The notes beneath the pieces are model-generated. The model saw nothing but the letters and a program-made list of their open reading frames with translations, did not search any database and was not told where the DNA came from. A stretch of 63,991 nucleotides of DNA, counting the filler, from Babesia bigemina (Eukaryota), in assembly GCF_000981445.1 (NCBI RefSeq). It is 4 parts of 4 records of this genome, joined end to end, with 100 filler letters (N's around TTAATTAATTAA, not from the genome) between each part and the next. Parts side by side here need not be neighbours in the genome. Positions count along the whole stretch, not along the records: positions 1 to 24,585 come from NW_012237332.1; 3 more parts are not named here. One strand, given 5' to 3'. Each line of letters starts with the position of its first letter. The first letter of the stretch is position 1. Positions 9,789 to 62,423 of the stretch are shown here, one piece after another. Made by a program: the position numbers and the translations under genes.

Positions 9789-10920
9789 TCCACTCTACAT
9801 CGCCCCTTTATCCACTCTACATCGCTCCCTAACCCACTCCACATCGCCCCTTTATCCACTCTACATCGCTCCCTAACCCACTCTACATCGCTCCCTTATC
9901 CACTCTACATCGCTCCCTTATCCACTCTACATCGCCCCTTTACACACTCCACATCGCCCCTTAACCCACTCTACATCGCTCCTCTATCCACTCTACATCG
10001 CCCCTTACCCACTCTACATCGCTCCTTAATCCACTCTACATCGCTCCCTAACCCACTCTACATCGCCCCTTAATCCACCCTTCATCGCCCCTTAACCCAC
10101 TCTACATCGCCCCTTTATCCACTCCACATCGCTCCTTAACCCACTCTACATCGCTCCTTTATCCACTCTACATCGCTCCTTTATCCACTCTACATCGCTC
10201 CCTTACCCACTCCACATCGCTCCCTAACCCACTCCACATCGCCCCTTTACCCACTCCACATCGCCCCTTAACCCACTCTTCATCGCCCCTTAACCCACTC
10301 TACATCGCCCCTTAATCCACTCCACATCGCTCCTTAACCACTCCACATCGCTCCTTTATCCACTCTACATCGCCCCTTTACCCACTCTACATCGCCCCTT
10401 AAACTCCTCTAATCGCTTCTTTATCCACTCTACATCGCTCCCTCATCCACTCCACATCGCTCCTTTATCCACTCTACATCGCTCCCTAACTCACTCCACA
10501 TCGCTCCCTAACCCACTCTACATCGCTCCCTAACCCACTCTACATCGCTCCTTTATCCACTCTACATCGCTCCCTAACCCACTCTACATCGCTCCTTTAT
10601 CCACTCTACATCGCCCCTTTATCCACTCTACATCACCCCTTAACCCACTCTACATCGCCCCTTTGTCCACTCTACATCGCTTCTTTATCCACTCTACATC
10701 GCCCCTTTATCCACTCTACATCGCCCCTTAACCCACTCCACATCGCTCCCTAACCCACTCTACATCGCCCCTTTACCCACTCTACATCGCTCCCTAACCC
10801 ACTCTACATCGCCCCTTTATCCACTCTACATCGCCCCTTAACCCACTCTACACCGCCCCTTAACCCACTCTACATCGCTCCTTAACCCACTCTACATCGC
10901 CCCTTAACCCACTCTACATC
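9789..10920 (+). repeat. 22-bp C-rich satellite (CCACTCTACATCGCYCCYTWAY) upstream of a ves gene
   Basis: About 50 direct units, ending at the conserved leader CATCCCTYGAATCACCTCGCC. Confidence 0.97.
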
Positions 10921-10948
10921 CCTCGAATCACCTCGCCTTAATACTGCT

Positions 10949-13900
10949 ATGGCCTTCTTAAACCATACTAATAACTTGTGCTTTGTCACCCTTCCTTCCC
11001 CCTCTTCCTCTGCTGAGCTAGACAAATTGCAGTCCAAGTTGGACGCTTTGGAGAAAGTGAAGAAGCTTTGTGAATTTTTGACTAATCTTAATAATCAACA
11101 AAATGAGCCTAAAAAGCTCTTAGATAACCTCTGCACTGGCCTTCAGACTTTCCTCGGCTTCAACTCTGAGTCAAAAGGCTACAACGGCTCTGGTATTGTC
11201 TACTCTGACTTGGACAGGCTGTGTGATGCAGTGATGGGATTTTTGAGTGGTGTGCTTGGCGCGGTGAAAGATGATGAAGCAGTTAAAACGTACGATAATT
11301 ACATGACTAAAAAGCTTAAAGATGTACTAGACACATTAACTTCTTCAATTGGCACCGGGCGTAATGGGCTTGCGGCGTCTGTCCGCGCGGTGAAGGAGTG
11401 GTTGGAGGGGTATGATACTCAAATTACTAATAAAACAAATGCAGTAACAAACGCTTTAACAACGTTAAGCAACAACCTAAATGACGGTTATGCTAATATT
11501 GTTGAATCAAAAAAAGTCGATAGCCTTGAAAAACAGTTAGAGTCATGGAACTCCACGGTGTCAGACGTCGCTCGTGAAATTGAGGTGATTGAAGAAGAAA
11601 AAATCAGTGAGTTGGATAACGCGTTGAAAAATGCAGTTATGAATAAAATTGAACCGATTAAAAAGTCCGTTGCAATGCTGGCAAATTCCGCCAAGCAAGA
11701 TGAATTTGTGCAGCAGGCGTCGAAGGTGGAGAGTGAGTTGGTGAAGCAGAGAGACATAATTACAGACACAGTTGAAGACATGGTACAAAATATTCGAGAG
11801 AGTGTACAGTCGTTGGAGACATGTAAAGATCAACAAATTTGGCTTGTGAAAAAGACTATAGAGAGGGCTGACGCTTTTTTAGATAGATCATTATACACGG
11901 AGTATATATACAAAATTTTGGCGTCTTTCAATCAGATAGAGTGTGAAGTTAAGAATGTATATAAAAGCTTGAATGCTAATAAAGGGGTGCTTGAAAATCT
12001 GGTTAATAAAGCTAGAGAGCACTTTCGGTCGATTAGAAGTGGAATTCAGCATGGTGCTGGCAGTGAAGGTAATATAGAGCATCAATGGGATGGCTTTAAA
12101 GTCCACCTTGCAAAATTTGTCAACGGTCTGTATAAGCAAGAACTTGAGATCGATCAAGACGATATTGATGTTACGAATGGCCTCATCAATGAAATTGAGA
12201 GTGGAGTCATGAATTATGGTGGCAACTTTGCGAAAAGGTTTGATGTGGCTATAGGAAATGTAGTTCGTAGCATCGTAAGCGAAAAGGAAGGTGCTGTGGA
12301 AAAGTACATTGAACAGTACGTACGGCGAAACAACAAATATTTCAAAGCCGATGTGAAGGCCAAACTTGAAGGCACGGGAAATACACAGATCGCAGCGTTC
12401 GTGGCGAGCCATCTTAGTCCCATAATTGAGAAGCAACTTCAATTGCACATTTCGCAAAAGATCAAGCAGTTTGAAATAGTCACTGACGACAGCGTCGACA
12501 CCGTTGTAGGAAATATCCAGACATATCTTACCACATACGCAGAGGCGGTTGATCCAATTAAGGTTAACACAATTGTGGAAATGATCGAGGAGCACTTAGA
12601 AATCGTTGCATCCGCTATGAAGACACAAGGTTATGACAACCAATATATGACCAAAATAATGAAAACCGTTCTCACAGCTGTCCACGCCATAACTCTACGC
12701 GTAAAAGAGGAACTTAACTCGTTCAACACCGACAGTGATAACATTAATTACAAATTCGGCAAGAATATAGATGAATCTATTAAATCGTTTACACAATTTG
12801 ATAAGTTGTTTAAGCTCACGCAGCAACAGGTGTCTGAAAAATTTGAAGATGTGAAAGGAAAAATTGGCCAACTCGACACGTTTTTGAATAAGAGTGAAGG
12901 CAAAATTACCAGGAAGCTCGCACATATTGAAGGTGATATTATAAGGCTTGAAAAACTTCAAAACGACAAAAATGATATTCGCAACAGAGAAAGTGATGTG
13001 GTCATAGACAGGAAAGGAGAGGAGGCCGATAGGCTTATGAAAGAGTTGAAAATAGACCTCAAGCACAAACTCAACGAAATTACTGTAGCTGTAAGCAATG
13101 CGGGTTACGCATTAGACACCGCCATTCAATCACTCCTAACCACCCTCAACAAATCTAAAGATCTATGTTTACAATCCGTCACCTCCGCCTTCACCACCCT
13201 CACCTCCGAGGTCCGCGCCCTCTTCGCCGAAGGCCACAAAGCCGACCTGGCGGCGCTCAAGACGCTCGTCGACGGGCAGAAGGCGGAGATTGAGAAGATC
13301 ATTGGGGAGGATAAAGCGAATAATATTAAGGGTCTGCTGCAGAAAATATACGGTGGATTATTGTATGATCGTGCGGGTCAAAACACAAATAACACTCTTG
13401 AAGATATGATGGAAACCTCCAAGGAGTCGGCTGCCCAAAGTCGTGAGCAGTCCAAATTCCTATCACATCTGTCAACACAATTCAAATCGTACTCTGATGC
13501 CGTGCTAGATTACATTAGATCGCAGGTGAAGTCCTCTGATTCCGCAAGTGATCAGTCCAACCAAGTCGGTGGGCTCAAGAACGCATTGGACGCCCTGCTT
13601 GTTCACCTTAACGATACCGACACTCCTTATACAATTAATCCGCTGAACAAACGTATTCACCTATTTGATCATAAATATGACGAATTGTTAGCAATACTTC
13701 GAACATCTTTGGACACCTTCACCTCCCCCTCCCCCCTCCTCGCCCCCCTCAAGGCCGGCCTCTCCAACTTCGCGCAGCAACTCGGCCTCGCGTACGTGAA
13801 CAGGTATAGTGGTCAAACATTCAAACAGTTAACTAAGCCTGTTGAACCTTCAAAAACAGCCGCTGCACCCGAAAAACCTTCCATCCCTGATTACGATTTA

Positions 13901-16168
13901 ACCCCTGAGGGCCGGAACTGCGCCAAGGTCTGCCTGACGATGGTGGAGATACTGGTTAACGATTTCTATGAGCTAATGAAAGAGTGCCAAAAATCGTGGA
14001 AAAACAAACAAATTAATACGTATGAAAACAACTTATTTGGCAAATGGTTAGAGGAACAAGGCTACGAAGTGAATTACAAGAAAGGCAAGCAGACCGGTGT
14101 ATTGCACGACACGATTGGAATGAAGGGATTGAAAATTTATGATGAGCTTCTCAACATGAACATTGGATCTTCTAAAAGAATAAATTTACAGGCTCCGTGG
14201 GTGATGGAAATTCGTAAGCAAAAAGAAGCCGACAATAAAAATCCTCATCAGATAAACGTCGTCGACATTCTTCAATTCCTTTACGGACTAACCAAAACTT
14301 ATTACGATGTATGCCACCTGCGCCATATTGAGAGACCGAAATCGCCGTCATCAGTCTACCAAATGCTGGTATGGCTGACTGGACTTCCTCACAATCGGAT
14401 GAACTCTACCGTATCAGTTGGCGACATCAGCGAACTGTTCCCCAAATCGGATGATGAGGCAAACGGCGTAGGAGATGGCACAATCCCGGTGGTAGATGAT
14501 GACGAATCGTTACCGGCGTATCCAGCTCCTGTTACCGCTGCGAATCTACGAGAGGCACTTCGAAATGTCTGCACCTATGCGGAAACTGTACTTATTTCCA
14601 TCCTTGGTCATGGCCACGCGAACGGCGTTTACGCCGTTGACTTCAACACAAACCCCGACGGTTTCTCATATCCTACCGCGCCTGGAGCGTGCTTCGATAT
14701 GCTTGTGGACATATCGAAGAGACTATATGACCAACTGTATTTCTTATTTATTCAATGCTCACGTACCTATGAAACTAACAGTTGGCGAGACTGCTGGTAC
14801 GGTCGGCACGTCGGTGGCTCAGACTGGAGGTGCAATGAGAAGCAATGCATCAACCAAATGGGCAACCAAAGTGCTGACCAAAAGGCCAACCAATGCTGTG
14901 GCCAAACGTGTGAGCAACACCCTAAGTGCGGCCTTAAATCTCCGTTACAGTCTTTCTTGGAAGACGGTTTGCCAGGATTTTTGCCGCACCAGTTCAAGAA
15001 CCCGGGTTGCAAGCTGGACTGCAGTACGGCCAATCACCGTGGGTTGCCGTGCAAAACGCCCATGGGTTTTTCAGATATAAGTAATATTGCATCGCATACT
15101 AAGCAAGGAGAATACATTATGAACACCCTCTATAGATTCTGTGGCCAACCGGATAGTCCACTTAATCAGTTGTCTACATATTTGGCGTGCCTATTAAGTG
15201 CTCCTCCAGCAACATTAGGTGACATGTTCGCTTTTTTCTACAATTACCTAGACGGGTGGCACAATCAACAGCTTAAAGAACGTGTGTCACACAGGGAGGA
15301 TGCCTTTGATGGCGCAATCACCAAGGCGTATTTCGGAGTTAAATACGATGATTTTGACCTATCGTTGCTTTTTAATGCTAAGCATTCCGATCACAACAAA
15401 CATCGTGACTTAATAAGTCTCGTTTGCGGGGGTGACAACAAATCAGTAACTAACTGCGGCCGCTATCTGCAACCTATCAACGCTAATACATGGACAGTGT
15501 TTTCTAAGGAGAACGCCGACAAGTATCTGTCGTGGATTATCTACCTCACTGAGTCCTTCTATAAGTTGCTTGAGCAGTTATACAAGGAATGTTGCGCAAA
15601 CTGTACATCTGCTGGATCACGTTGCCACGGTAAAACCTGCGTCGCGGATTGCAAAGTCAAATCCCACTACGCATCTCTGGCATCTGCTGCCAAAAGCAAA
15701 ACTCCTGCCCCCGCACCTACCGAACACCAACACAATGAATTATGCAAACCTATCTCTCACTGCCCGTTCACACGTCCTACCTTGTGTAAGTACGGTTTTG
15801 TTTTTAAAAGCCTATCCAATATGAGCGGCGAGAATGGAGAACTAACGATGCGTACCTGCAAAGACCTATGTAACGCATTGCAGAAAGTTCTGAGTAATAA
15901 AATCAGTGACGGTGCACCACTCGCCAAATTGGTACATGAAGTAATCCCCAAATTCATATGGGCCATTAGGCAAAAATTCTTCTGGACCACCGTCGCCCTC
16001 TGGCTCCTGTCCCTCCTCTACCTCCTCCACATCATGGTCATCCGCCTCGACCTGCTCCACATCAAATCTCACTTACACTCACCATCGTCACATCGCATCG
16101 CCGCTCAATCACTACTCGCCGCCGCACGTGTTAACAAGCTTAACAGGGTGTTTTACCTGCAACCGTAA
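10949..16168 (+). CDS. ves: VESA-like antigen, subfamily-2 body, tail type B (...NKLNRVFYLQP)
   Basis: 1739-aa ATG-started ORF with YSDLDRLCD, HPKCGLKSPLQSFLEDGL, C-terminal TM and RLDLLHIKSHLHSP tail. Confidence 0.88.
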   Translation: MAFLNHTNNLCFVTLPSPSSSAELDKLQSKLDALEKVKKLCEFLTNLNNQQNEPKKLLDNLCTGLQTFLGFNSESKGYNGSGIVYSDLDRLCDAVMGFLSGVLGAVKDDEAVKTYDNYMTKKLKDVLDTLTSSIGTGRNGLAASVRAVKEWLEGYDTQITNKTNAVTNALTTLSNNLNDGYANIVESKKVDSLEKQLESWNSTVSDVAREIEVIEEEKISELDNALKNAVMNKIEPIKKSVAMLANSAKQDEFVQQASKVESELVKQRDIITDTVEDMVQNIRESVQSLETCKDQQIWLVKKTIERADAFLDRSLYTEYIYKILASFNQIECEVKNVYKSLNANKGVLENLVNKAREHFRSIRSGIQHGAGSEGNIEHQWDGFKVHLAKFVNGLYKQELEIDQDDIDVTNGLINEIESGVMNYGGNFAKRFDVAIGNVVRSIVSEKEGAVEKYIEQYVRRNNKYFKADVKAKLEGTGNTQIAAFVASHLSPIIEKQLQLHISQKIKQFEIVTDDSVDTVVGNIQTYLTTYAEAVDPIKVNTIVEMIEEHLEIVASAMKTQGYDNQYMTKIMKTVLTAVHAITLRVKEELNSFNTDSDNINYKFGKNIDESIKSFTQFDKLFKLTQQQVSEKFEDVKGKIGQLDTFLNKSEGKITRKLAHIEGDIIRLEKLQNDKNDIRNRESDVVIDRKGEEADRLMKELKIDLKHKLNEITVAVSNAGYALDTAIQSLLTTLNKSKDLCLQSVTSAFTTLTSEVRALFAEGHKADLAALKTLVDGQKAEIEKIIGEDKANNIKGLLQKIYGGLLYDRAGQNTNNTLEDMMETSKESAAQSREQSKFLSHLSTQFKSYSDAVLDYIRSQVKSSDSASDQSNQVGGLKNALDALLVHLNDTDTPYTINPLNKRIHLFDHKYDELLAILRTSLDTFTSPSPLLAPLKAGLSNFAQQLGLAYVNRYSGQTFKQLTKPVEPSKTAAAPEKPSIPDYDLTPEGRNCAKVCLTMVEILVNDFYELMKECQKSWKNKQINTYENNLFGKWLEEQGYEVNYKKGKQTGVLHDTIGMKGLKIYDELLNMNIGSSKRINLQAPWVMEIRKQKEADNKNPHQINVVDILQFLYGLTKTYYDVCHLRHIERPKSPSSVYQMLVWLTGLPHNRMNSTVSVGDISELFPKSDDEANGVGDGTIPVVDDDESLPAYPAPVTAANLREALRNVCTYAETVLISILGHGHANGVYAVDFNTNPDGFSYPTAPGACFDMLVDISKRLYDQLYFLFIQCSRTYETNSWRDCWYGRHVGGSDWRCNEKQCINQMGNQSADQKANQCCGQTCEQHPKCGLKSPLQSFLEDGLPGFLPHQFKNPGCKLDCSTANHRGLPCKTPMGFSDISNIASHTKQGEYIMNTLYRFCGQPDSPLNQLSTYLACLLSAPPATLGDMFAFFYNYLDGWHNQQLKERVSHREDAFDGAITKAYFGVKYDDFDLSLLFNAKHSDHNKHRDLISLVCGGDNKSVTNCGRYLQPINANTWTVFSKENADKYLSWIIYLTESFYKLLEQLYKECCANCTSAGSRCHGKTCVADCKVKSHYASLASAAKSKTPAPAPTEHQHNELCKPISHCPFTRPTLCKYGFVFKSLSNMSGENGELTMRTCKDLCNALQKVLSNKISDGAPLAKLVHEVIPKFIWAIRQKFFWTTVALWLLSLLYLLHIMVIRLDLLHIKSHLHSPSSHRIAAQSLLAAARVNKLNRVFYLQP

Positions 16169-16293: not shown

Positions 16294-16583
16294 GTGTTGA
16301 CCAATGTGCTGACCAATGTGCTGACCAAAGTGCTGATCAAAGTGGTGACCAACGTGTTAGCCAACGTGTTGACCAAGGTGCTGACCAATGTGCTGACCAA
16401 TGTGCTGACCAACGTGGTGACCTATGTGCTGACCAATGTGCTGACCAATGTGCTGACCAATGTGCTGACCAACGTGGTGACCTATGTGCTGACCAACGTG
16501 GTGACCTATGTGCTGACCAAGCACCTGACCAAGTTAGAGGTCACGGCAGCGATGACATGGTTACGGCAGCGATGACATGGTCA
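16294..16583 (+). repeat. 12-bp array (16294-16533) followed by a short 20-bp array
   Basis: Direct periodicity. Confidence 0.92.
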
Positions 16584-16599
16584 CAAGTGGTGATTATTA

Positions 16600-17950
16600 T
16601 CCACTCTACATCGCCCCTTAACCACTCCACATCGCTGCCTAATCCACTCTGCATCGCCCCTTATCCACTCTACATCGCTCCTTATCCACTCCACATCGCC
16701 CCTTTACCCACTCTACATCGCCCCTTAACCCACTCTACATCGCTCCCTTACCCACTCTACATCGCTCCCTAACCCACTCTACATCGCCCCTTTATCCACC
16801 CTACATCGCTCCCTAACCCACTCTACATCGCTCCCTAACCCACTCTACATCGCCCCTTTATCCACTCTTCATCGCTCCCTAACCCACTCTACATCGCTCC
16901 CTAATCCACTCTTCATCGCTCCCTAACCCACTCTACATCGCTCCCTAATCCACTCTACATCGCCCCTTAACCCACTCTACATCGCTCCCTTATCCACTCT
17001 ACATCGCCCCCTAATCCACTCTACATCGCTCCTTAACCCACTCTACATCGCTCCCTAACCCACTCTACATCGCCCCTTAACCCACTCTACATCGCTCCCT
17101 AACCCACTCTACATCGCTCCCTAACCCACTCTACATCGCTCCCTAACCCACTCTACATCGCCCCTTAACCCACTCTACATCGCTCCCTAACCCACTCAAC
17201 ATCGCCCCTTTACCCACTCTACATCGTTCCCTAACCCACTCTACATCGCCCCTTAACCCACTCTACATCGCCCCTTCATCCACTCTACATCGCTCCCTAA
17301 CCCACCTTACATCGCCCCTTTATCCACTCCACATCGCCCCTTTATCCACTCCACATCGCCCCTTAACCCACTCTACATCGCCCCTTTATCCACTCTACAT
17401 CGCCCCTTTATCCACTCTACATCGCTCCTTTATCCACTCTACATCGCTCCCTAACCCACTCTACATCGCTCCTCTATCCACTCTACATCGCTCCCTGATC
17501 CACTCTACATCGCCCCTTTATCCACTCTACATCGCTCCCTAACCCACTCTACATCGCCCCTTAATCCACTCTACATCGCTCCCTAACCCACTCTACATCG
17601 CCCCTTAACCCACTCTACATCGCCCCTTTACCCACTCCACATCGCCCCTTAACCCACCCTTCATCGCTCCTTTACCCACTCTACATCGCTCCCTAACCCA
17701 CTCTACATCGCTCCCTAACCCACTCTACATCGCTCCTTTATCCACTCTACATCGCTCCTTTATCCACTCTACATCGCTCCTTATCCACTCTACATCGCTC
17801 CCTAACCCACTCCACATCGCTCCTTAACCCACTCTACATCGCCCCTTAACCCACTCTACATCGCCCCTTAACCCACTCTACATCGCCCCTTTATCCACTC
17901 TACATCGCCCCTTTATCCACTCTACATCGCTCCCTAACCCACTCTACATC
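16600..17950 (+). repeat. 22-bp satellite
   Basis: About 60 direct units. Confidence 0.97.
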
Positions 17951-18838
17951 CCTTGAATCACCTCGCCTTAATACCGCTATGACCTTTATAAACCTTTATA
18001 ATAACTTGTGCTTTGTCACCCTTCACTTCCCTCTTCCACCTCTTGCCACTGCCATGTCCCATCATGTTCACCCTAACTCCAAATCTCTCGAATTACTTCA
18101 TTATATTAACGCTATGACCTCCATTAATCATTATAATAACTTGTTGATACTGACCATTCTCTCACTGACGATGCTACTAGAAGAGCCTTGCAGGACATTG
18201 ACTCCAAGCTTGTTAGCCTTGGTCACCTGGCTGGACAGCTTGGAGGATTTGTTGGTGAAAGTGAGAGTGTTAAGAAAGCCGTTATATATGCTATTATCGC
18301 CCAAATTAACAGTAATGAAGAGCTTAAAAAGCTTTACTCTTCTCATGTTACTATCCTTTCTGAGTCTGTCAAGCCTGCTGGCAAGGCTGATGACAACCTA
18401 AAAATTAGTGAGCTTAAAGATAAAGTTACCACTGAAATTACGCTTACTGAAGAGGCAATTAAGAATCTTAAGCCTACTGAAAATAACTCTCTTCCTTCCC
18501 CCTCTCCCTCTGCTGAGCTAGCCAAATTGCACTCCAAGTTGGAGGCTTTGAGGAAGGTGGAGAAGCTTTGTGGATTTTATGAGAATCTTAATACTAAACA
18601 AAATGATCCTAAAAAGCTCTTAGATAATTTATGTTCCGGCCTCGAAAAATTCCTCGGCTTCAACTCTGACTCCAAAGGCTACGACGGCAGTGGGATTGTG
18701 TACTCTGACCTGGATAGGCTGTGTGACGCAGTGATGGGATTTTTTGAGTGGTGTGCTTGAGGATGTCAGCGAGAAACAGCCTTACAGTGTGGGTAAAACA
18801 ATACTAATAGAGATTGTTACTGGAGCTTAAAAATAATT
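17951..18838 (+). pseudogene. ves: Truncated, frameshifted duplicate of the leader and 5' end of the ves gene at 43415
   Basis: Essentially identical to 43178-44063, with an extra T at ~18741 and an extra G at ~18822, then an abrupt switch to satellite. May be an assembly artefact. Confidence 0.65.
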
Positions 18839-18844
18839 CGCTCC

Positions 18845-20406
18845 GTAATCCACTCAACATCGCTCCTTAGCGCACTGTACATCGCTCCCTAACCCACTCC
18901 ACATCGCTCCCTAACCCACTCCACATCGCTCCTTTACCCACTCCACATCGCCCCTTAATCCACCCTACATCGCCCCTCTATCCACTCTACATCGCCCCTT
19001 TACCCACTCTACATCGCCCCTTTACCCACTCTACATCGCCCCTTTACCCACTCTACATCGCCCCTTTACCCACTCTACATCGCTCCCTAACCCACTCTAC
19101 ATCGCCCCTTTACCCACTCTACATCGCCCCTTAACCCACCTTACATCGCCCCTCTACCCACTCTACATCGCTCCCTAACCCACTCTACATCGCCCCTTAA
19201 CCCACTCTACATCGCCCCTTTATCCACTCCACATCGCCCCTTAATCCACTCTACATCGCTCCCTTATCCACCCTACATCGCCCCTTAACCCACTCCACAT
19301 CGCCCCTTTATCCACTCCACATCGCTCCCTTAACCCACTCCACATCGCTCCCTAACCCACTCTACATCGCCCCCTAACCCACTCTACATCGCCCCTTAAC
19401 CCACTCCACATCGCTCCTTTATCCACTCTACATCGCCCCTTATCCACTCTACATCGCCCCTCTATCCACTCTACATCGCCCCTTTGTCCACTCTACATCC
19501 CTCCTTTATCCACTCTACATCGCTCCTTATCCACTCTACATCGCTCCCTAACCCACTCTACATCGCCCCCTAACCCACTCCACATCGCCCCCTAACCCAC
19601 TCTACATCGCCCCTTTACACACTCCACATCGCCCCTTAACCCACTCTACATCGCTCCTCTATCCACTCTACATCGCCCCTTACCCACTCTACATCGCTCC
19701 TTAATCCACTCTACATCGCTCCCTAACCCACTCTACATCGCCCCTTAATCCACCCTTCATCGCCCCTTAACCCACTCTACATCGCCCCTTTATCCACTCC
19801 ACATCGCTCCTTAACCCACTCTACATCGCTCCTTTATCCACTCTACATCGCTCCTTTATCCACTCTACATCGCTCCCTTACCCACTCCACATCGCTCCCT
19901 AACCCACTCCACATCGCCCCTTTACCCACTCCACATCGCCCCTTAACCCACTCTTCATCGCCCCTTAACCCACTCTACATCGCCCCTTAATCCACTCCAC
20001 ATCGCTCCTTAACCACTCCACATCGCTCCTTTATCCACTCTACATCGCCCCTTTACCCACTCTACATCGCCCCTTAAACTCCTCTAATCGCTTCTTTATC
20101 CACTCTACATCGCTCCCTCATCCACTCCACATCGCTCCTTTATCCACTCTACATCGCTCCCTAAATCACTCCACATCGCTCCCTAAACCACTCTACATCG
20201 CTCCCTAAACCACTCTACATCGCTCCTTTATCCACTCTACATCGCTCCCTAAACCACTCTACATCGCTCCTTTATCCACTCTACATCGCCCCTTTATCCA
20301 CTCTACATCACCCCTTAACCCACTCTACATCGCCCCTTTGTCCACTCTACATCGCTTCTTTATCCACTCTACATCGCCCCTTTATCCACTCTACATCGCC
20401 CCTTAA
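18845..20406 (+). repeat. 22-bp satellite ending at the retrotransposon 5' junction
   Basis: Direct units; the last ~810 bp are colinear with 9922-10731. Confidence 0.96.
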
Positions 20407-23400
20407 GGAGTTGGAATCTTCTGTGATTTTGGGGGAAACTTTGAGAAACGTGTTTTCTCGGGTTTATCACAGAAAGGAAATTTTTCCGATGTCACTGGGG
20501 GGTGTATTGAAGGCCAAAAGTGCGGAATTAAAGCGGCAACATCGCGAGGCGAAAGGCGGCCACACAGGCGCGCTGGATAGACGAACAAGGTACCAATGGA
20601 GAGCTCACAAGAAGTGCAGCTGAGCAGTCAAATCGATGAGGACGGAGACCTCATGGTTATTGACGTGGACGTCCCCGATGGGATGGACATCGATGCTCCG
20701 CTTGCCACCGTGGGGCGCCGAGAGTGTCGGCAACCCGAAAGGCGGCATGAATCCAGAAAACCGGTACAAAGCGGTGTTCAGGGCCCTAAAGGTAAACCCA
20801 CAAATTCGAAGGGGGCCGGCCGTGGCGGCGAAAGCCGGCCAATCCCGCAGGCAAGCCGGAAACGACACCAGCCCGGAACCACTCCGGCTGTGAAGGGCGC
20901 TGGAAACAAAGCACGGAACGGCGGTCCCCAGGGCCAAAAGGGTAACAACCGGAAGGCCAAAAAGACAGGAAACACGGCTCAAACGCCGCCTGTCGTGGTT
21001 TGCAACGCCGGGCCGAGTTCCTCGGAACGCGCACCCGTGTGTGTGCAGACACTGTCTACCCTGCAGCCACCGGCAGGGGAGGTTGTCGGAAACGGTGGCT
21101 GCCGCTCTCCGACCGTGTATTCCATATCGTCGGATGACTTTATGGACGTGGACGAAGAGGAACCTGAGCAAGTCGGGCCTGTGAGAGAATCAAACAACAG
21201 TATAGCACCGGGCACCGCCAGTGAGGTGGCGCTCACTGAGACGGCTGCGTTGCCGAGGGCACCCGAAGGGCACGCCCCGCAGGCTGAACGGGCCGGGAAC
21301 ACGCCACAAATGCCGCCGAACTACGCTAGGCTGAATGCCAAGTTACAGTTCCTGCACTGTGTCATGCGTCAGATCGATGGACCATGGTGTCATTGGGTAC
21401 CGGACGTCTACAAGGCAGTAGTGACGAAGTATCAGAGGATGCCACGAGGAGGATGGAAAGTCCTCGCGGAATATGCCAACGAGCATTTCGAATTCCACAA
21501 GACCCACAAGGAGGTGGAGCAGATGGCAAGACAGGTAGTCGCCAAAGCAGCGCGGAGCCAACCGACGGACGTTGGAGAAATAGCATCGCTGCACGACGTC
21601 GACTCATACAACGCCCTGCAGGAGGATTTCGACCGGATCATGGCACAGAGGTTGAGGGAGCCTGACCTACTACCGAAGAACAAGAAACCAAAGTCCGCCG
21701 CACAGTACAGGCCGATCACTTGCATGTCCAACCTATACAAGCTAACTACCCGTTGTGCCACGGAGACGCTTAAGCGAGAAGTCGATGGCAGGGGACTACG
21801 GTCCGAGAACCAGATGGGCACGAGGAGCAACGTACAGGGTGCAAAGGAGCACGCGTTAGCGAACATCGCGCTCAACGAGAAGCACAAGGGGAAGTTACTT
21901 GCAACGTGGGTCGACGTCATGAAGGCGTACGACTCAATCGACCACGCGTACCTGGCAAGGGTTATCGACAACCTTAACCTACCAGGGTGGTTATCAAACT
22001 TCATCAAGCAGACGATCAAGAGGTGGAATATAGAGATACGGTGGAACAAGAACACAATCATGCACAAGAAAGTGGAGAGGGGCATTCTCCAAGGCGACAG
22101 CCTATCGCCCCTTCTCTTCGTGCTGTGCTTGGACCCGCTGAGCAGGCACCTGACTCGCATCTTCCCCAAGGTGGAGTTAAGCGTGACCGGCGGCAGGATA
22201 TTCGCCACAAACCACTTTCTCTATATTGACGACCTCAAGTTCTTCGCCCACGAGGAAAGTACGATGAGAGGAATGGGCCGAGAAGTGGAGAAGTTCTTCA
22301 ACGACATAGGACTCAGGATCAACCGCGACAAGTCGGCAACCAACACGGAGGCGTGCGCCAGCATCGCCAAGCAGATGGAAGGCCCGGAAACGTACAAGTA
22401 CTTGGGAGTCACAGAGACTTCAAACTCACTGACAAGCGACGGAATGTTCGACATAATACTACAGGAGATATGCAGGAGAACGGAGCTACTGGCTGCGTCA
22501 AAGCTGTCGGGGAAAAACCTCTCGATGGCCATCAACCAGTACGCCCTCAGCGTCATCAACTACTACATCGGCGTGATCCCTATGGACATCACGCATTTCG
22601 ACAAGATCGACCTGGCAGTACGGAGAATAATTAACGCGAAGCACGGACACAAGAAGTGGGCGAACACACAGAGGCTCTACCTCCCCCGGAAAGAGATGGG
22701 GAGAGGGCTCCACAGCATGGTATTTAGAGCGGAAGCCATGCTGCTACGACTGTGGTTGACGCTTTCAGCAGACGAGGTGACGTCAACCAGGAGAGCTGCG
22801 ATCATGCAGCATTTTCGCGACACATACGCGCACATATCTCACATCAAGATGCACCTGGAAGGAAGATATGGAATGGAATTCGGAATGGAGGACACTACGG
22901 ACAAGAGCCTCAGGGACCTCAGGGTGGCCCAAAACAAATGGCTGTACAACAGAATGCACGTAAAATCAACTCATAAGGTTCTGTATGCCAAGCGTGAGGA
23001 CCCCAAGCTGGACATTGAGGCGTCGTCCTTGTACCTGACGTGTGGAATACTCACTCCGGAAGAAGAAGCGAACGTAGCGGAAGTCCAGGATAGGAATCTG
23101 CAATGGATGTCTTCGTCCAAGAAATGCACAAGATGCAACAACGGCAAGAACGTGGATCACCTCGCGACGAAGTGCCAGAAACTACTACACCTAGAATATA
23201 CGAAGAGGCACAACGAGGTAGCAAAACGGGTCCACTCAGTACTCGGGAGGCAAATAGGACTACCCAAGGAGAAGATAGACGCCCACAAGATCGAGAGTGA
23301 AGTACATGGAAAATACGGATGGATCGCGTACGACAAGACGGTCAAGACTCAGAAGACTAAGGAATACAACAGGCCAGACATCATCCTGGCGGATCGGCGG

Positions 23401-23896
23401 AGGAACACCATAACCATCGTGGAGATAGGAATCACCAATCAAGACAACCTAGTGGATACGGAGAAGTTCAAGAAGCAGAAGTATGAAGACCTTATTGAGG
23501 ACCTCAAGGCGCGACAGTTTAACCAGCACACCAAGATCAGGGTTATCCCCTACGTTATGACGTGGGAGGGAATAGTGACAAAGGAGCACAGCAAGTACAG
23601 ACGGGACCTGGGCATATCGGATCGCATGGAAGCCCACATACAAAGGGTAGTGATCCAAGAAACACATAAAATAGTGATGAGGGATATGAAGCCGAAAGAA
23701 GACTACGATTCCGTAGAAGACCCTCAAGCCCAAACTGGATGGATGCCCGCATGGATGGCACCAGTGACGTCCGGCAATGGACCGGCGTGGATCCCGCAAC
23801 CGGTTTCAGCGTGAGGCGTTAGCCCCGCAAACACGAAAACCGGCCCTAGGCACGTAGCCACATAGCACACTATAAGATGAGATAACTTAATTTAAC
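20407..23896 (+). mobile_element. Non-LTR retrotransposon copy 1 (RLE type, R4/Dong-like), with candidate 5' end and an internal in-frame deletion
   Basis: Starts where the satellite stops (CCCCTTAA|GGAGTTGG). 189-nt 5' UTR, single ORF, 82-nt 3' UTR ending GATAACTTAATTTAAC, shared with the other two copies. Confidence 0.92.
20596..23814 (+). CDS. Retrotransposon polyprotein: reverse transcriptase + CCHC knuckle + restriction-like endonuclease (1072 aa, lacks RT0 region)
   Basis: YRPITC, ENQMG, DVMKAYDSIDH, GILQGDSLSPLLF, YIDD, GLRIN, YKYLG, LYLPRKEMGRGL, CTRC-x7-H-x4-C, RHNEV, RPDII..IVEI, KKQKY. Confidence 0.93.
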   Translation: MESSQEVQLSSQIDEDGDLMVIDVDVPDGMDIDAPLATVGRRECRQPERRHESRKPVQSGVQGPKGKPTNSKGAGRGGESRPIPQASRKRHQPGTTPAVKGAGNKARNGGPQGQKGNNRKAKKTGNTAQTPPVVVCNAGPSSSERAPVCVQTLSTLQPPAGEVVGNGGCRSPTVYSISSDDFMDVDEEEPEQVGPVRESNNSIAPGTASEVALTETAALPRAPEGHAPQAERAGNTPQMPPNYARLNAKLQFLHCVMRQIDGPWCHWVPDVYKAVVTKYQRMPRGGWKVLAEYANEHFEFHKTHKEVEQMARQVVAKAARSQPTDVGEIASLHDVDSYNALQEDFDRIMAQRLREPDLLPKNKKPKSAAQYRPITCMSNLYKLTTRCATETLKREVDGRGLRSENQMGTRSNVQGAKEHALANIALNEKHKGKLLATWVDVMKAYDSIDHAYLARVIDNLNLPGWLSNFIKQTIKRWNIEIRWNKNTIMHKKVERGILQGDSLSPLLFVLCLDPLSRHLTRIFPKVELSVTGGRIFATNHFLYIDDLKFFAHEESTMRGMGREVEKFFNDIGLRINRDKSATNTEACASIAKQMEGPETYKYLGVTETSNSLTSDGMFDIILQEICRRTELLAASKLSGKNLSMAINQYALSVINYYIGVIPMDITHFDKIDLAVRRIINAKHGHKKWANTQRLYLPRKEMGRGLHSMVFRAEAMLLRLWLTLSADEVTSTRRAAIMQHFRDTYAHISHIKMHLEGRYGMEFGMEDTTDKSLRDLRVAQNKWLYNRMHVKSTHKVLYAKREDPKLDIEASSLYLTCGILTPEEEANVAEVQDRNLQWMSSSKKCTRCNNGKNVDHLATKCQKLLHLEYTKRHNEVAKRVHSVLGRQIGLPKEKIDAHKIESEVHGKYGWIAYDKTVKTQKTKEYNRPDIILADRRRNTITIVEIGITNQDNLVDTEKFKKQKYEDLIEDLKARQFNQHTKIRVIPYVMTWEGIVTKEHSKYRRDLGISDRMEAHIQRVVIQETHKIVMRDMKPKEDYDSVEDPQAQTGWMPAWMAPVTSGNGPAWIPQPVSA

Positions 23897-24585
23897 GTAG
23901 TTATATCAATCAAGCACATATATCTAGAGGGAAACTCAATGGAGAATATTACCTACAGAAGCTTGGTGAAGGTTTAAAGGATGCAATACATAAGCAGTTT
24001 AAGAAGGTGGTAGTTGGAGAAGAGGAAGAAGATATAGATCTTAAAACACTTAACAAGGATTATTACAACGAAACTGTGAAAGATGCCGAAGTAGCACACG
24101 ACAAACTTAGAGGCATGATTCAAGCTTTTAAAGGGCCAGTTGAAAAAGACGGTTTCACTGGTAATGCAGCATCAGCAAGATTTGTCGCTAAGGATATGCC
24201 GGGTTACCGAACAGGCACAATAGGCACGCCAAAAGGTAAAAAAGATGAGTACGACATCGCCTTAAACAATGTTGACACCGCGCTTAAAGCATTCGAGACT
24301 GAAGGCTGTGTCGATCATATTGAAGGCGAAGAAGCCGACATTCAACAAAAGAAAGATGAACTTGGTGGCTTCGTCACCGAAATCACTAACGAACTAAATG
24401 ACATTGGAGTTTTAATTGACAGCACCTCAGGTGTGGTAGTGAACAGACAGATGATGTCTGCAGATCCACAAGGCCTCAAGCAGAAGTTCATTGACTTGAG
24501 AAGTAAAATCGGCAGAACCATCGGTGTTGAAACAGTCAGGATAGGCACTCTTCAGAAAATTCATGACGATATGACTACTTTAAGA
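23896..24585 (+). pseudogene. ves: Internal ves-like coding fragment starting at the retroelement 3' end, cut by the gap
   Basis: Frame is open from 23896 (RSYINQAH...). GLKQKFIDLRSKIGRT resembles GRLTELKRRIGRT and GVKRKITDLRHMI in the other ves ORFs. Confidence 0.65.
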
Positions 24586-24685
24586 NNNNNNNNNNNNNNN
24601 NNNNNNNNNNNNNNNNNNNNNNNNNNNNNTTAATTAATTAANNNNNNNNNNNNNNNNNNNNNNNNNNNNNNNNNNNNNNNNNNNN
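24586..24685. other. Artificial contig linker N44-TTAATTAATTAA-N44
   Basis: Identical 100-nt stop-codon spacer occurs three times. Confidence 0.97.
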
Positions 24686-25602: not shown

Positions 25603-25620
25603 AATAATCACCACTTGTGT

Positions 25621-25950
25621 CCATGTCATCGCTGCCGTGTTGATGTCATCGCTGCCGTGACCATGTCATCGCTGCCGTGTTGATGTCATCGCTGCCGTGA
25701 CCATGTCATCGCTGCCGTAACCATGTCATCGCTGCCGTGACCATGACATCGCTGCCGTAACCATCAACTGTCATCGCTGCCGTGACCATGTCATCGCTGC
25801 CATAACCATGTCATCGCTGCCGTGTCCATCTCATCGCTGCCGTGACCAGGTCATCGCTGCCGTATCCATTTCATCGCTGCCGTGACCATGTCATCGCTGC
25901 CGTAACCATGTCATCGCTGCCGTGACCATGACATCGCTGCCGTGACCATA
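25621..25950 (-). repeat. 20-bp tandem repeat, about 16 units
   Basis: ccatgtcatcgctgccgtga periodicity. Confidence 0.95.
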
Positions 25951-27119: not shown

Positions 27120-27124
27120 CTTCC

Positions 27125-41392: not shown

Positions 41393-42716
41393 GTTAAATT
41401 AAGTTATCTCATCTTATAGTGTGCTATGTGGCTACGTGCCTAGGGCCGGTTTTCGTGTTTGCGGGGCTAACGCCTCACGCTGAAACCGGTTGCGGGATCC
41501 ACGCCGGTCCATTGCCGGACGTCACTGGTGCCATCCATGCGGGCATCCATCCAGTTTGGGCTTGAGGGTCTTCTACGGAATCGTAGTCTTCTTTCGGCTT
41601 CATATCCCTCATCACTATTTTATGTGTTTCTTGGATCACTACCCTTTGTATGTGGGCTTCCATGCGATCCGATATGCCCAGGTCCCGTCTATACTTGCTG
41701 TGTTCTTTCGTCACTATTCCCTCCCACGTCATAACGTAGGGGATAACCCTGATCTTGGTGTGCTGGTTAAACTGTCGCGCCTTGAGGTCCTCAATAAGGT
41801 CTTCATACTTCTGCTTCTTGAACTTCTCCGTATCCACTAGGTTGTCTTGATTGGTGATTCCTATCTCCACGATGGTTATGGTGTTCCTCCGCCGATCCGC
41901 CAGGATGATGTCTGGCCTGTTGTATTCCTTAGTCTTCTGAGTCTTGACCGTCTTGTCGTACGCGATCCATCCGTATTTTCCATGTACTTCACTCTCGATC
42001 TTGTGGGCGTCTATCTTCTCCTTGGGTAGTCCTATTTGCCTCCCGAGTACTGAGTGGACCCGTTTTGCTACCTCGTTGTGCCTCTTCGTATATTCTAGGT
42101 GTAGTAGTTTCGGGCACTTCGTCGCGAGGTGGTCCACGTTCTTGCCGTTGTTGCATCTTGAGCATTTCTTGGACGAAGTCATCCATTGCAGATTCCTGTC
42201 CTGGACTTCTGCTACCTTCGCTTCTTCTTCCGGGGTGAGTATTCCACACGTCAGGTACAATGACGACGCCTCGATGTCCAGCTTGGGGTCCTCACGCTTG
42301 GCATACAGAACCTTATGAGTTGATTTTACGTGCATTCTGTTGTACAGCCATTTGTTTTGGGCCACCCTGAGGTCCCTGAGGCTCTTGTCCGTAGTGTCCT
42401 CCATTCCGAATTCCATTCCATATCTTCCTTCCAGGTGCATCTTGATGTGAGATATGTGCGCGTATGTGTCGCGAAAATGCTGCATGATCGCAGCTCTCCT
42501 GGTTGACGTCACCTCGTCTGCTGAAACGTCAACCACAGTCGTAGCAGCATGGCTTCCGCTCTAAATACCATGCTGTGGAGCCCTCTCCCCATCTCTTTCC
42601 GGGGGAGGTAGAGCCTCTGTGTGTTCGCCCACTTCTTGTGTCCGTGCTTCGCGTTAATTATTCTCCGTACTGCCAGGTCGATCTTGTCGAAATGCGTGAT
42701 GTCCATAGGGATCACG
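41393..42716 (-). mobile_element. Retrotransposon copy 2 (3' 1.3 kb, cut by the gap; 1-bp frameshift at ~42526)
   Basis: Reverse complement of ~22572-23896, including the 3' UTR; encodes the CCHC and RLE domains (ORF 41475-42536). Confidence 0.92.
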
Positions 42717-59557: not shown

Positions 59558-62423
59558 TCGGGAAAGAAGGAGGCAGCTGAGAGGAGGATCAAGGAGCTGG
59601 AGGAGATAGGAGCATTACTTCTGAAATACAAGCAGAAGGTCCCCCTGGAGAAGGAGGATAGGAAACGCGTTTATCGCCAAATGGACAAGTACAACATGAT
59701 CGCGGACAAGCCGCAGGAACTGTCATACGTGATCAGCAGGACTCAAGAGGAGCTCCAAAAGGAGCAGGACAAACTCAAGAACGCCAAGTTCAAGAAGGAG
59801 TTGTACAACGACAACCGCATGTTCGAGCTCTACACGGGACACTTCTACAGGACACTGGAGAACAAGCAGGACGCGGACGAGTCGGCGATAAACGAGGGGA
59901 TGATGATAGAGTACTGGGCGCAAATGTGGGTGAAGCCAAACGCACCGCACAACGGTGAAGGATATCTGGTCGAAAGACCACCGGCAGAGAACAAGGCAGG
60001 CTTTCCCACATACGAGGAATTCGTCACGATCGTCAAGAAATTGCGAGACTGGAAGTCGCCCGGTGCGGATGGGATCTACAACTACTACATTAAATGGCTC
60101 ACGTCCCTTCACAGAGTCATTTACAGGCTAGTAGAGGAGGTATGCCAGCAAGGCAAAGTGCAGGACGACTGGTTCTACTGTGGGATCACGTACCTACTAC
60201 CGAAGAACAAGAAACCAAAGTCCGCCGCACAGTACAGGCCGATCACTTGCATGTCCAACCTATACAAGCTAACTACCCGTTGTGCCACGGAGACGCTTAA
60301 GCGAGAAGTCGATGGCAGGGGACTACGGTCCGAGAACCAGATGGGCACGAGGAGCAACGTACAGGGTGCAAAGGAGCACGCGTTAGCGAACATCGCGCTC
60401 AACGAGAAGCACAAGGGGAAGTTACTTGCAACGTGGGTCGACGTCATGAAGGCGTACGACTCAATCGACCACGCGTACCTGGCAAGGGTTATCGACAACC
60501 TTAACCTACCAGGGTGGTTATCAAACTTCATCAAGCAGACGATCAAGAGGTGGAATATAGAGATACGGTGGAACAAGAACACAATCATGCACAAGAAAGT
60601 GGAGAGGGGCATTCTCCAAGGCGACAGCCTATCGCCCCTTCTCTTCGTGCTGTGCTTGGACCCGCTGAGCAGGCACCTGACTCGCATCTTCCCCAAGGTG
60701 GAGTTAAGCGTGACCGGCGGCAGGATATTCGCCACAAACCACTTTCTCTATATTGACGACCTCAAGTTCTTCGCCCACGAGGAAAGTACGATGAGAGGAA
60801 TGGGCCGAGAAGTGGAGAAGTTCTTCAACGACATAGGACTCAGGATCAACCGCGACAAGTCGGCAACCAACACGGAGGCGTGCGCCAGCATCGCCAAGCA
60901 GATGGAAGGCCCGGAAACGTACAAGTACTTGGGAGTCACAGAGACTTCAAACTCACTGACAAGCGACGGAATGTTCGACATAATACTACAGGAGATATGC
61001 AGGAGAACGGAGCTACTGGCTGCGTCAAAGCTGTCGGGGAAAAACCTCTCGATGGCCATCAACCAGTACGCCCTCAGCGTCATCAACTACTACATCGGCG
61101 TGATCCCCATGGACATCACGCATTTCGACAAGATCGACCTGGCAGTACGGAGAATAATTAACGCGAAGCACGGACACAAGAAGTGGGCGAACACACAGAG
61201 GCTCTACCTCCCCCGGAAAGAGATGGGGAGAGGGCTCCACAGCATGGTATTTAGAGCGGAAGCCATGCTGCTACGACTGTGGTTGACGCTTTCAGCAGAC
61301 GAGGTGACGTCAACCAGGAGAGCTGCGATCATGCAGCATTTTCGCGACACATACGCGCACATATCTCACATCAAGATGCACCTGGAAGGAAGATATGGAA
61401 TGGAATTCGGAATGGAGGACACTACGGACAAGAGCCTCAGGGACCTCAGGGTGGCCCAAAACAAATGGCTGTACAACAGAATGCACGTAAAATCAACTCA
61501 TAAGGTTCTGTATGCCAAGCGTGAGGACCCCAAGCTGGACATTGAGGCGTCGTCCTTGTACCTGACGTGTGGAATACTCACTCCGGAAGAAGAAGCGAAC
61601 GTAGCGGAAGTCCAGGATAGGAATCTGCAATGGATGTCTTCGTCCAAGAAATGCACAAGATGCAACAACGGCAAGAACGTGGATCACCTCGCGACGAAGT
61701 GCCAGAAACTACTACACCTAGAATATACGAAGAGGCACAACGAGGTAGCAAAACGGGTCCACTCAGTACTCGGGAGGCAAATAGGACTACCCAAGGAGAA
61801 GATAGACGCCCACAAGATCGAGAGTGAAGTACATGGAAAATACGGATGGATCGCGTACGACAAGACGGTCAAGACTCAGAAGACTAAGGAATACAACAGG
61901 CCAGACATCATCCTGGCGGATCGGCGGAGGAACACCATAACCATCGTGGAGATAGGAATCACCAATCAAGACAACCTAGTGGATACGGAGAAGTTCAAGA
62001 AGCAGAAGTATGAAGACCTTATTGAGGACCTCAAGGCGCGACAGTTTAACCAGCACACCAAGATCAGGGTTATCCCCTACGTTATGACGTGGGAGGGAAT
62101 AGTGACAAAGGAGCACAGCAAGTACAGACGGGACCTGGGCATATCGGATCGCATGGAAGCCCACATACAAAGGGTAGTGATCCAAGAAACACATAAAATA
62201 GTGATGAGGGATATGAAGCCGAAAGAAGACTACGATTCCGTAGAAGACCCTCAAGCCCAAACTGGATGGATGCCCGCATGGATGGCACCAGTGACGTCCG
62301 GCAATGGACCGGCGTGGATCCCGCAACCGGTTTCAGCGTGAGGCGTTAGCCCCGCAAACACGAAAACCGGCCCTAGGCACGTAGCCACATAGCACACTAT
62401 AAGATGAGATAACTTAATTTAAC
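59558..62423 (+). mobile_element. Retrotransposon copy 3 (5' end lost in the gap; complete RT including RT0)
   Basis: From 60192 on it is near-identical to 21665-23896, with the same 3' end. Confidence 0.93.
59681..62341 (+). CDS. Retrotransposon RT-CCHC-RLE polyprotein, 5'-partial (frame open back to 59558)
   Basis: WKSPGADGI (RT0), YRPITC, QGDSLSP, YIDD, YKYLG, CCHC, RHN, PD..E, KxxKY. Confidence 0.93.
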   Translation: MDKYNMIADKPQELSYVISRTQEELQKEQDKLKNAKFKKELYNDNRMFELYTGHFYRTLENKQDADESAINEGMMIEYWAQMWVKPNAPHNGEGYLVERPPAENKAGFPTYEEFVTIVKKLRDWKSPGADGIYNYYIKWLTSLHRVIYRLVEEVCQQGKVQDDWFYCGITYLLPKNKKPKSAAQYRPITCMSNLYKLTTRCATETLKREVDGRGLRSENQMGTRSNVQGAKEHALANIALNEKHKGKLLATWVDVMKAYDSIDHAYLARVIDNLNLPGWLSNFIKQTIKRWNIEIRWNKNTIMHKKVERGILQGDSLSPLLFVLCLDPLSRHLTRIFPKVELSVTGGRIFATNHFLYIDDLKFFAHEESTMRGMGREVEKFFNDIGLRINRDKSATNTEACASIAKQMEGPETYKYLGVTETSNSLTSDGMFDIILQEICRRTELLAASKLSGKNLSMAINQYALSVINYYIGVIPMDITHFDKIDLAVRRIINAKHGHKKWANTQRLYLPRKEMGRGLHSMVFRAEAMLLRLWLTLSADEVTSTRRAAIMQHFRDTYAHISHIKMHLEGRYGMEFGMEDTTDKSLRDLRVAQNKWLYNRMHVKSTHKVLYAKREDPKLDIEASSLYLTCGILTPEEEANVAEVQDRNLQWMSSSKKCTRCNNGKNVDHLATKCQKLLHLEYTKRHNEVAKRVHSVLGRQIGLPKEKIDAHKIESEVHGKYGWIAYDKTVKTQKTKEYNRPDIILADRRRNTITIVEIGITNQDNLVDTEKFKKQKYEDLIEDLKARQFNQHTKIRVIPYVMTWEGIVTKEHSKYRRDLGISDRMEAHIQRVVIQETHKIVMRDMKPKEDYDSVEDPQAQTGWMPAWMAPVTSGNGPAWIPQPVSA

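What the first reader, a model, noticed from the sequence alone, without database searches (positions are those of the whole stretch)
19597..20420. Apparent empty site: the element 5' junction falls at TTAA|CCC within the telomere-like satellite
Seen: 19597-20406 is colinear (offset 9675, including rare variant units such as aaactcctctaatcgcttct and ctttgtccac) with 9922-10731. That copy continues CCCCTTAA-CCCACTCC, whereas here it continues CCCCTTAA-GGAGTTGG. The element's own 3' end, TTTAAC, resembles the satellite's (T)TTAAC. Inference: the satellite may be a target, as for repeat-targeting Dong/R4 or telomeric elements, and the two arrays may be filled and empty alleles or paralogs.
Basis: partly seen in the sequence, partly recalled or inferred. 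Interest (0 to 1): 0.7.

Follow-up and report, generated by a model that had tools for sequence, protein, structure and literature searches.

The report
Babesia retrotransposon among antigen-gene satellites
A young R2-type retrotransposon of the cattle parasite Babesia bigemina begins exactly inside a 22-base satellite that precedes surface-antigen genes, but its other mapped ends lie outside the satellite, so the satellite is likely an occasional landing place, not a specific target, and this copy is likely a patchwork of two insertion sites.

Summary
Observation confirmed: 19597-20406 matches 9922-10731 over 810 bp with 4 mismatches; no other array pair in the window exceeds 153 bp. Position 20407 is the true 5' end of a single-ORF RT/restriction-like-endonuclease non-LTR retrotransposon of Babesia bigemina (4,315 bp full length), so the satellite junction is a real insertion end. 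The target hypothesis fails. None of 7 mapped 3' junctions and only 1 of 3 5' junctions lie in the satellite, which is 17-19% of this DNA. One copy in public contigs has an 11-bp target duplication in non-satellite DNA. This copy's own 3' flank is ves1-like coding sequence, whose empty site in another run is not satellite. The copy also lacks 825 bp, and its array lacks both normal borders. It is therefore a composite of two insertion sites, more likely through assembly than through recombination. Both arrays lie on one contig. The satellite is internal to ves1 loci and is not telomeric. LINE-like elements in B. bigemina are already reported; I found no description of their ends, target duplication or placement in ves1 clusters. 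Ordinary for the finding as posed; modest interest for the element.

The parts
9790..10924 (+). 22-bp satellite array A, with the standard borders, upstream of a ves1-type gene; uninterrupted
9922..10731 (+). segment of array A matched by array C; the bond 10731/10732 is the candidate empty site
10886..16168 (+). ves1-type ORF downstream of array A (conserved C-terminus with membrane helix; motif identity with VESA1 recalled)
17951..18837 (+). 5' piece of a ves1-type locus, 99.8% identical to 43178-44062, cut off by array C; two 1-bp insertions (18740, 18822) near the cut
18838..20406 (+). 22-bp satellite array C; lacks both standard borders; left 759 bp not from array A; degenerate units at the left end
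19597..20406 (+). 810-bp A-type part of array C, ending at the element's first base
20407..23896 (+). copy 1 of the RLE non-LTR retrotransposon: intact 5' and 3' ends, internal deletion, no target duplication between its flanks
20490..20623 (+). short upstream ORF in the 5' leader, overlapping the main ORF start; similar residues in a B. ovata gene model
20596..23814 (+). main ORF (1,072 aa here, 1,347 aa in full copies): RT, CCHC motif, PD-(D/E)xK-type endonuclease motif
21664..21665 (+). 825-bp in-frame deletion, absent from contigs of X1, X2 and X3; removes the region before and at the start of the RT domain
23897..24585 (+). 3' flank of copy 1: ves1-like coding DNA; a contig of X5 covers it without the element and without satellite upstream
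41393..42716 (-). copy 3 (3' part, cut by the contig end); 3' junction in ves1-type coding DNA
59558..62423 (+). copy 2 (cut by the contig start); 3' junction 179 bp from a satellite array, antisense to the ves1 locus
24586..24685 (.). artificial contig linker (N44, 12 letters, N44); also at 42717-42816 and 59458-59557

Best explanation
Position 20407 is the first base of a young single-ORF RT/endonuclease retrotransposon of Babesia bigemina that likely inserts by target-primed reverse transcription with loose sequence preference; one copy landed in an A-type satellite array, and the copy in this contig likely joins that insertion's 5' half to another insertion's 3' half through assembly. Shown: the element's ends, its domains, its near-identical copies, one 11-bp target duplication, a duplicated tail, non-satellite flanks at all but one mapped junction, and the mismatch between copy 1's two flanks. 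Inferred: the endonuclease nicks one strand, the 3' end of the RNA is copied from the nick (tail slippage explains the duplicated tail), and a second nick about 11 bp away gives the duplication. Inferred: copies pile up in ves1 clusters because those loci are redundant, and the satellite is hit in proportion to its share. Inferred: array A, or a very recent duplicate of it, is the empty form of the 5' junction, and near-identical 4.3-kb copies misled the assembler, leaving the 825-bp gap and the ragged join at 18837/18838.
For: 5' end at 20407: contigs of X1, X2 and X3 all stop matching there; the X1 5' flank and an X1 3' flank share an 11-bp direct repeat at the expected places, chance about 6e-5; a B. 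ovata gene model enters the element at the same residues, between host pieces that are colinear in a paralog. Not satellite-specific: 0 of 7 3' junctions and 1 of 3 5' junctions in satellite; at most 9 insertions, 1 in satellite, P=0.81 at a 17% share; 0 of 7 has P=0.008 if half of the insertions hit the satellite. Composite copy: X5 record 23 covers 23901-24195 with non-satellite letters upstream; 825 letters missing against X1, X2, X3; array C lacks both borders, with two 1-bp insertions and 23 of 33 novel 12-mers around its left join. Element type: PF00078, conserved CCHC and endonuclease motifs in 60 sequences, top seven fold matches are R2 proteins. The published reference assembly used 8x capillary reads and Phrap (PMC4066756, passage); that the window comes from it is my inference from identical proteins.
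Against: The tally is small, partly from one sample (X1 = X3, which may be the assembly's own source), and drawn from ves1-rich unplaced contigs. No listed contig spans the 20406/20407 junction, and the partner 3' junction in satellite was not listed (83 loose-end rows and 2,892 pieces not shown). X2's 5' flank letters were not displayed. Only one target duplication was seen. ves1 loci do recombine and move in vivo (PMC4066756, passages), so the composite may be real. Three of 9 insertions are in or within 200 bp of an array, which is not significant (P=0.37) but leaves a regional bias open. The A-type identity up to the junction could be a majority consensus of array A reads laid over one junction read.
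Confidence: 0.6

Rival explanations
1. Same loosely specific element, but the composite is real: recombination between two element copies and between arrays joined pieces of three ves1 loci in the parasite's chromosome.
For: Four breaks within 5 kb (18837/8, 19596/7, 21664/5, and non-matching flanks) in a gene family known to transpose and recombine (PMC4066756, passages and section 22 part 1). The deletion keeps the frame. Array B and array F differ beyond their last 137 bp although the DNA after them is 99.8% identical, as gene conversion would give.
Against: Error-like letters cluster at the left join and in the 810-bp segment; the deletion is in none of the three runs whose contigs cross it; an unplaced contig from a low-coverage assembly is where mis-joins are expected (inference).
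Confidence: 0.25
2. Regional targeting: the element is drawn to the satellite-bearing upstream regions or chromatin of ves1 loci (for example through its N-terminal helical domain) and inserts in or near the arrays without a fixed base.
For: Copy 1 is in an array, copy 2 is 179 bp from one, and the X1/X3 copy is about 35 bp from one, the last two antisense. Gene models fuse the element to ves-type sequence in B. bigemina, B. ovata and B. caballi.
Against: 3 of 9 against a 24% share gives P=0.37; at least three junctions lie inside coding exons; selection against insertions elsewhere and the ves1-rich window explain the clustering as well.
Confidence: 0.1
3. One reading: the satellite is the sequence-specific target, as for Dong/R4-type or telomere-targeting elements, and arrays C and A are filled and empty sites.
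For: A precise 5' end abuts an A-type array; most RLE clades are target-specific (PMC4640811, passage); two distant relatives start right after (TTA)n runs.
Against: 0 of 7 3' junctions in satellite, P=1e-5 for an 80% target share; a target duplication in non-satellite DNA; the satellite exists at many loci, and 8 of 9 arrays in the window show no element inside the assembled part; the arrays are not telomeric.
Confidence: 0.05

Closest known systems
LINE-like elements of Babesia and Theileria equi (Rodriguez and Makalowski 2022, PMC9141347; passages read, supplements not)
   Same: Same hosts: LINE-like sequence covers 133,787 bp (0.97%) of B. bigemina; also B. ovata, B. divergens (called LINE R2 by MGEScan) and T. 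equi; absent from B. bovis. Very likely this family.
   Different: The passages give no ends, target duplication, target analysis or link to ves1 loci. Their models in the supplement were not seen.
EhLINE1 of Entamoeba histolytica (PMC1635306; passages read)
   Same: RLE-type endonuclease in a protist parasite, dispersed insertion with only a weak nicking preference. This is what the element works like.
   Different: EhLINEs were not found within genes; this element interrupts ves1-type genes. Sequence relationship not tested.
R2 retrotransposons (R2Bm 8GH6, R2Tg 9DOU/9NL3, R2Pm 9NL2)
   Same: Best fold matches, E 2e-29 to 6e-25, ahead of LINE-1; single ORF, RT then CCHC then endonuclease.
   Different: 14-15% identity; no N-terminal C2H2 finger motif; no 28S rDNA target.
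Dong / R4 / Rex6 (targets as listed in PMC1635306: R4 in 28S rDNA, Dong and Rex6 in TAA repeats)
   Same: Single ORF with RT, CCHC and endonuclease; lack of N-terminal zinc fingers fits what I recall of this clade; distant relatives L006 and L007 begin after (TTA)n runs.
   Different: No fixed repeat target here. Clade placement not tested: no named R4, Dong or Rex6 sequence came from any call.
Unnamed RT proteins of microsporidia and environmental contigs
   Same: Nearest non-piroplasm relatives, 40-45% identity over the RT-endonuclease region; the Babesia elements form one branch, support 100 (quick tree).
   Different: T. equi elements fall outside that branch in the quick tree, without strong support; one origin is not excluded.

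Membership tests
RLE-encoding non-LTR retrotransposon (R2 group) | Non-LTR-type reverse transcriptase domain | tested here: met
   PF00078 E 3e-30; sequence hits to L1 ORF2p and R2; fold hits
RLE-encoding non-LTR retrotransposon (R2 group) | C-terminal CCHC motif and PD-(D/E)xK-type endonuclease; no APE domain | tested here: met
   C940, H948, C953, P1020 invariant in 60 sequences; PD..E..K pattern conserved; helix/strand core at 995-1124 of the model; Pfam gave only RVT_1
RLE-encoding non-LTR retrotransposon (R2 group) | Marks of target-primed insertion (common 3' end, varied flanks, target duplication, 5'-shortened copies) | tested here: met
   Common 3' end in 3 of 3 window copies; one 11-bp duplication and one duplicated tail; depth about tenfold higher at the 3' end in X2 and X5 (summed contig depth, a rough sign only)
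Sequence-specific repeat-targeting element (Dong/R4-like) | 3' junctions at one position of one repeat | tested here: not met
   0 of 7 3' junctions in the satellite and no shared flank sequence
Sequence-specific repeat-targeting element (Dong/R4-like) | Both flanks of a copy rebuild the target | tested here: not met
   Copy 1: satellite on the left, ves1-like coding DNA on the right
R4 clade | RT phylogeny with R4, Dong, Rex6 | not testable with these tools
   No named reference sequences were returned; two literature searches gave no usable definition
R4 clade | No N-terminal zinc fingers (recalled) | tested here: met
   No C2H2-like motif in the first 560 aa of P0002; 2 of 60 aligned proteins have one
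R2 clade | N-terminal zinc finger(s) and 28S rDNA target (recalled; target also in PMC1635306) | tested here: not met
Telomere-targeting retrotransposon | Insertion in telomeric repeat arrays at chromosome ends | tested here: not met
   Arrays are internal 22-bp repeats with gene-side borders; telomere heptamer absent from 8 of 9 arrays (heptamer from PMC10463595)
RLE-encoding non-LTR retrotransposon (R2 group) | Endonuclease and RT activity | not testable with these tools
   needs a biochemical assay

The most novel reading that the evidence does not exclude
A still-active RLE retrotransposon is drawn to the satellite-marked ves1 antigen loci of Babesia bigemina and its relatives, breaks antigen genes, and supplies near-identical 4.3-kb recombination substrates and a reverse transcriptase there; the composite at 17951-24585 would be a real product of such recombination, and the element a so far unrecognised source of ves1 rearrangement and of the retroposed ves genes proposed in the literature.
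Probability: 0.2. Interest if true: 0.7.

Novelty: new member of a known kind. Interest (0 to 1): 0.33.

Why it matters
As posed, a satellite-specific retrotransposon would have been a new target class in Apicomplexa, a group poor in mobile elements; the junction tally removes that. What remains: exact ends, a target duplication and many intact near-identical copies (7 or more accessions of 1,347 aa) suggest recent activity, and the mapped insertions interrupt or adjoin ves1 antigen loci in B. bigemina and B. ovata. If that placement is more than tolerance, it would bear on how ves1 genes move between loci, which PMC4066756 describes without a mobile element in the passages I read. It also warns that unplaced ves1 contigs with this element may be mis-joined.

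Tried and rejected
1. 'Copy 1 is 5'-truncated' (X1/X3 contigs run 293-295 letters upstream): rejected when the 11-bp duplication showed those letters to be flank. 2. 'A second insertion lies in the satellite at the same unit position in the opposite orientation' (joint 20384/23896): withdrawn; the depths and lengths show it is the target-duplication contig, with about 50 letters between the element end and the satellite. 3. A purine-rich start shared by some 3' flanks: post hoc, 3 of 7, not claimed. 4. Ribozyme or structure in the 5' leader: no Rfam match near threshold; folding z -1.8 and 0.5. 5. The X1 5' flank is not in the window (0 matches). 6. No whole genome was held, so the other annotated copies' flanks could not be read. 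7. No RNA holder listed; X4 is only guessed to be RNA; no claim on expression. 8. Metagenome scan with the single protein found nothing; with the alignment 80 loci, none from Babesia-like DNA by identity (at most 45%); I looked at the ends of 6 of 80. 9. Rows left out of the junction tally: 11 loose-end rows of diverged copies at 23870-23891 (X2 four, X4 four, X5 three; some pool up to 4 contigs), whose element end cannot be placed; none of their displayed letters is satellite; 4 more rows were not shown, 83 rows were not shown. Runs laid: 5 of 24 listed. 10. Earlier scan findings: none. 11. PMC5660447, PMC3505731 and PMC4202319 (passages) gave nothing on this family. 12. The careful tree did not finish; only the quick tree is cited.

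Full report
Setting. The window is four contigs joined by N-linkers at 24586-24685, 42717-42816 and 59458-59557. The RT protein is 100% identical over the searched region to proteins named Babesia bigemina, and proteins encoded by the first contig are listed with contig length 24,585, so both arrays of the finding lie on one contig. The host genes are six long ORFs of a B. bigemina / B. ovata multigene family (158 hits) that share a C-terminus with a membrane helix. I identify them as ves1 genes from that motif (recalled) and from the family description in PMC4066756 (section 22 part 1). Each locus is preceded by 12-bp, 20-bp and 22-bp repeats; the nine 22-bp arrays make up 10,742 bp, 17% of the window or 19% of its non-element DNA.

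The observation. 19597-20406 equals 9922-10731 with 4 mismatches in 810 bp. The other 44 of 45 array comparisons reach at most 153 bp at that tolerance. The last 100 bp before the junction are 100/100 to array A and 90-93/100 to the rest. So the match is real and specific to array A. The left 759 bp of array C do not come from A at this offset.

The element. The ORF at 20596-23814 has an RT domain, a CCHC motif and an endonuclease motif conserved in 60 aligned proteins. The model of a sister copy (mean pLDDT 85.7) matches R2 proteins first and LINE-1 next. Full copies encode 1,347 aa; the clusters hold 14 B. bigemina proteins, several with more than one accession. Three copies are in the window, 98.8-99.9% identical. 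The Babesia elements form one branch in a quick tree of 46 proteins, among microsporidian and environmental relatives.

The 5' end is real. Contigs of X1, X2 and X3 stop matching at 20407. The letters before it in X1/X3 are not satellite and end in an 11-bp word plus one G; the same word follows an X1 3' end after a 13-letter tail duplication and two A. That is a target-site duplication (chance about 6e-5), so 20407 is the element's first base, give or take the extra G, and the full length is 4,315 bp. A B. ovata gene model enters the element at the same residues, between host pieces that are 17 residues apart in a paralog; a predicted intron there cannot be excluded. A random mis-join would hardly fall on this exact base, so some molecule did carry an insertion in the satellite (inference).

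The satellite is not the target. 3' junctions: copy 1 in ves1-like coding DNA, copy 2 in non-coding DNA 179 bp from an array, copy 3 in ves1 coding DNA, two in X1 and two in X5: 0 of 7 in satellite. 5' junctions: copy 1 in satellite, X1/X3 not, X2 record 8 with 241 further letters that did not lay on the satellite (letters not shown): 1 of 3. That is at most 9 insertions with 1 in satellite, as expected from a 17% share (P=0.81); 0 of 7 has P=0.008 if half and 1e-5 if 80% of insertions hit the satellite. One search lists no joint from 23896 back into the satellite in the same orientation, which the filled-site reading predicts. Its one joint between 23896 and the satellite is the target-duplication contig: depths 3.07 and 3.09 and 82 loose letters agree with records, and about 50 letters separate the element end from the satellite. 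That insertion lies about 35 bp outside an array. Three of 9 in or within 200 bp of an array is not an excess (P=0.37). Eleven rows of diverged copies were left out because their end cannot be placed; X1 and X3 are one sample and may be the assembly's source.

Copy 1 is a composite. Its flanks share no duplication. A contig of X5 covers 23901-24195 (3 differences) with 63 letters upstream that are neither element nor satellite; by my reading of the 30 letters shown, the ves1-like frame is open across the site. So the 3' junction belongs to an insertion in a coding exon and the 5' junction to one in an array. Between them 825 bp are missing that X1, X2 and X3 contigs hold. Array C lacks the 5' and 3' borders that the other arrays share where they are sequenced. 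Its left end cuts a ves1 segment that is 99.8% identical to 43178-44062; the only two differences are 1-bp insertions within 100 bp of the cut, and the first 44 bp of the array have 23 of 33 12-mers found in no other array. These look like read-end errors. The published reference assembly of the species was made from 8x capillary reads with Phrap (PMC4066756, passage). I put assembly at about two to one over recombination in vivo; ves1 loci do recombine, so the latter stays open.

Telomere likeness. TTAGGG occurs in about a quarter of units, but the heptamer reported for B. bovis and B. caballi telomeres (PMC10463595, passage) occurs only at the four mismatches of array C. The arrays are internal.

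What is known. LINE-like elements are reported for B. bigemina, B. ovata, B. divergens and T. equi (PMC9141347, passages), and RT gene expansions for B. caballi and B. ovata (PMC10463595, passages). Most RLE clades are target-specific (PMC4640811, passages), but EhLINE1 is an RLE element with dispersed insertion and a weak nicking preference (PMC1635306, passages); that is the closest working model. Searches listed no paper on this element's ends, target sites or link to ves loci; the library lacks most subscription journals, and I did not open the supplements of PMC9141347, which may hold its consensus. R4-clade membership is plausible from recalled features but untested.

Verdict. Observation confirmed; interpretation partly supported; new member of a known kind; interest 0.33. 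The bolder reading, that the element is drawn to ves1 loci and helps rearrange them, has probability about 0.2.

Noticed in passing
window 20165, 20187, 20209, 20253: All four mismatches to array A are the same C>A change, which turns a unit into the complement of the Babesia telomere heptamer; the variant is absent from the other 8 arrays. Base-calling or correction error, or a locally spread variant.
   Followed up: partly
window 20490-20623: A 44-codon upstream ORF overlaps the start of the main ORF in another frame; similar residues, and similar leader-encoded residues before them, appear in B. ovata gene model P0137, so the 5' leader is conserved between species.
   Followed up: partly
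window 6397-10924, 16294-17950, 24687-28657, 34678-36678, 49375-51536, 57624-59457: ves1-type loci are preceded by an ordered set of tandem repeats (24-bp, 74-bp, 12-bp, 20-bp, 22-bp) with conserved borders; the G-rich strand of the 22-bp unit has regular G runs. A regulatory or recombination role is untested, and I did not search for it in print.
   Followed up: no
window 17951-18837 and 43178-44062: Two ves1 5' segments are 99.8% identical while their arrays agree only over the last 137 bp: recent gene conversion or shared reads.
   Followed up: partly
window 23500-23896 (runs X2, X4, X5): Other isolates hold many diverged, apparently 5'-shortened copies with different A/T-rich tails: older subfamilies or non-autonomous derivatives.
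   Followed up: no
L006 about 3600-3650; L007 about 570-600: Two distant relatives (31% identity) begin right after (TTA)n runs, as Dong-like elements would; the contigs are rich in such runs, so chance is not excluded.
   Followed up: no
proteins P0129, P0131, P0137, P0051: Gene models in B. bigemina, B. ovata and B. caballi fuse the element ORF to neighbouring surface-antigen-type sequence (P0051 carries PF12785); probably annotation artefacts that mark insertion sites.
   Followed up: partly
proteins P0057, P0141 against P0002-P0012: T. equi elements do not group with the Babesia elements in the quick tree; both lie among microsporidian and environmental relatives, which would fit two entries into piroplasms, without strong support.
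   Followed up: partly
window 41475-42560 (-): Copy 3 has a frameshift near 42530 and is 98.8% identical to copies 1 and 2: a slightly older or error-bearing copy.
   Followed up: no
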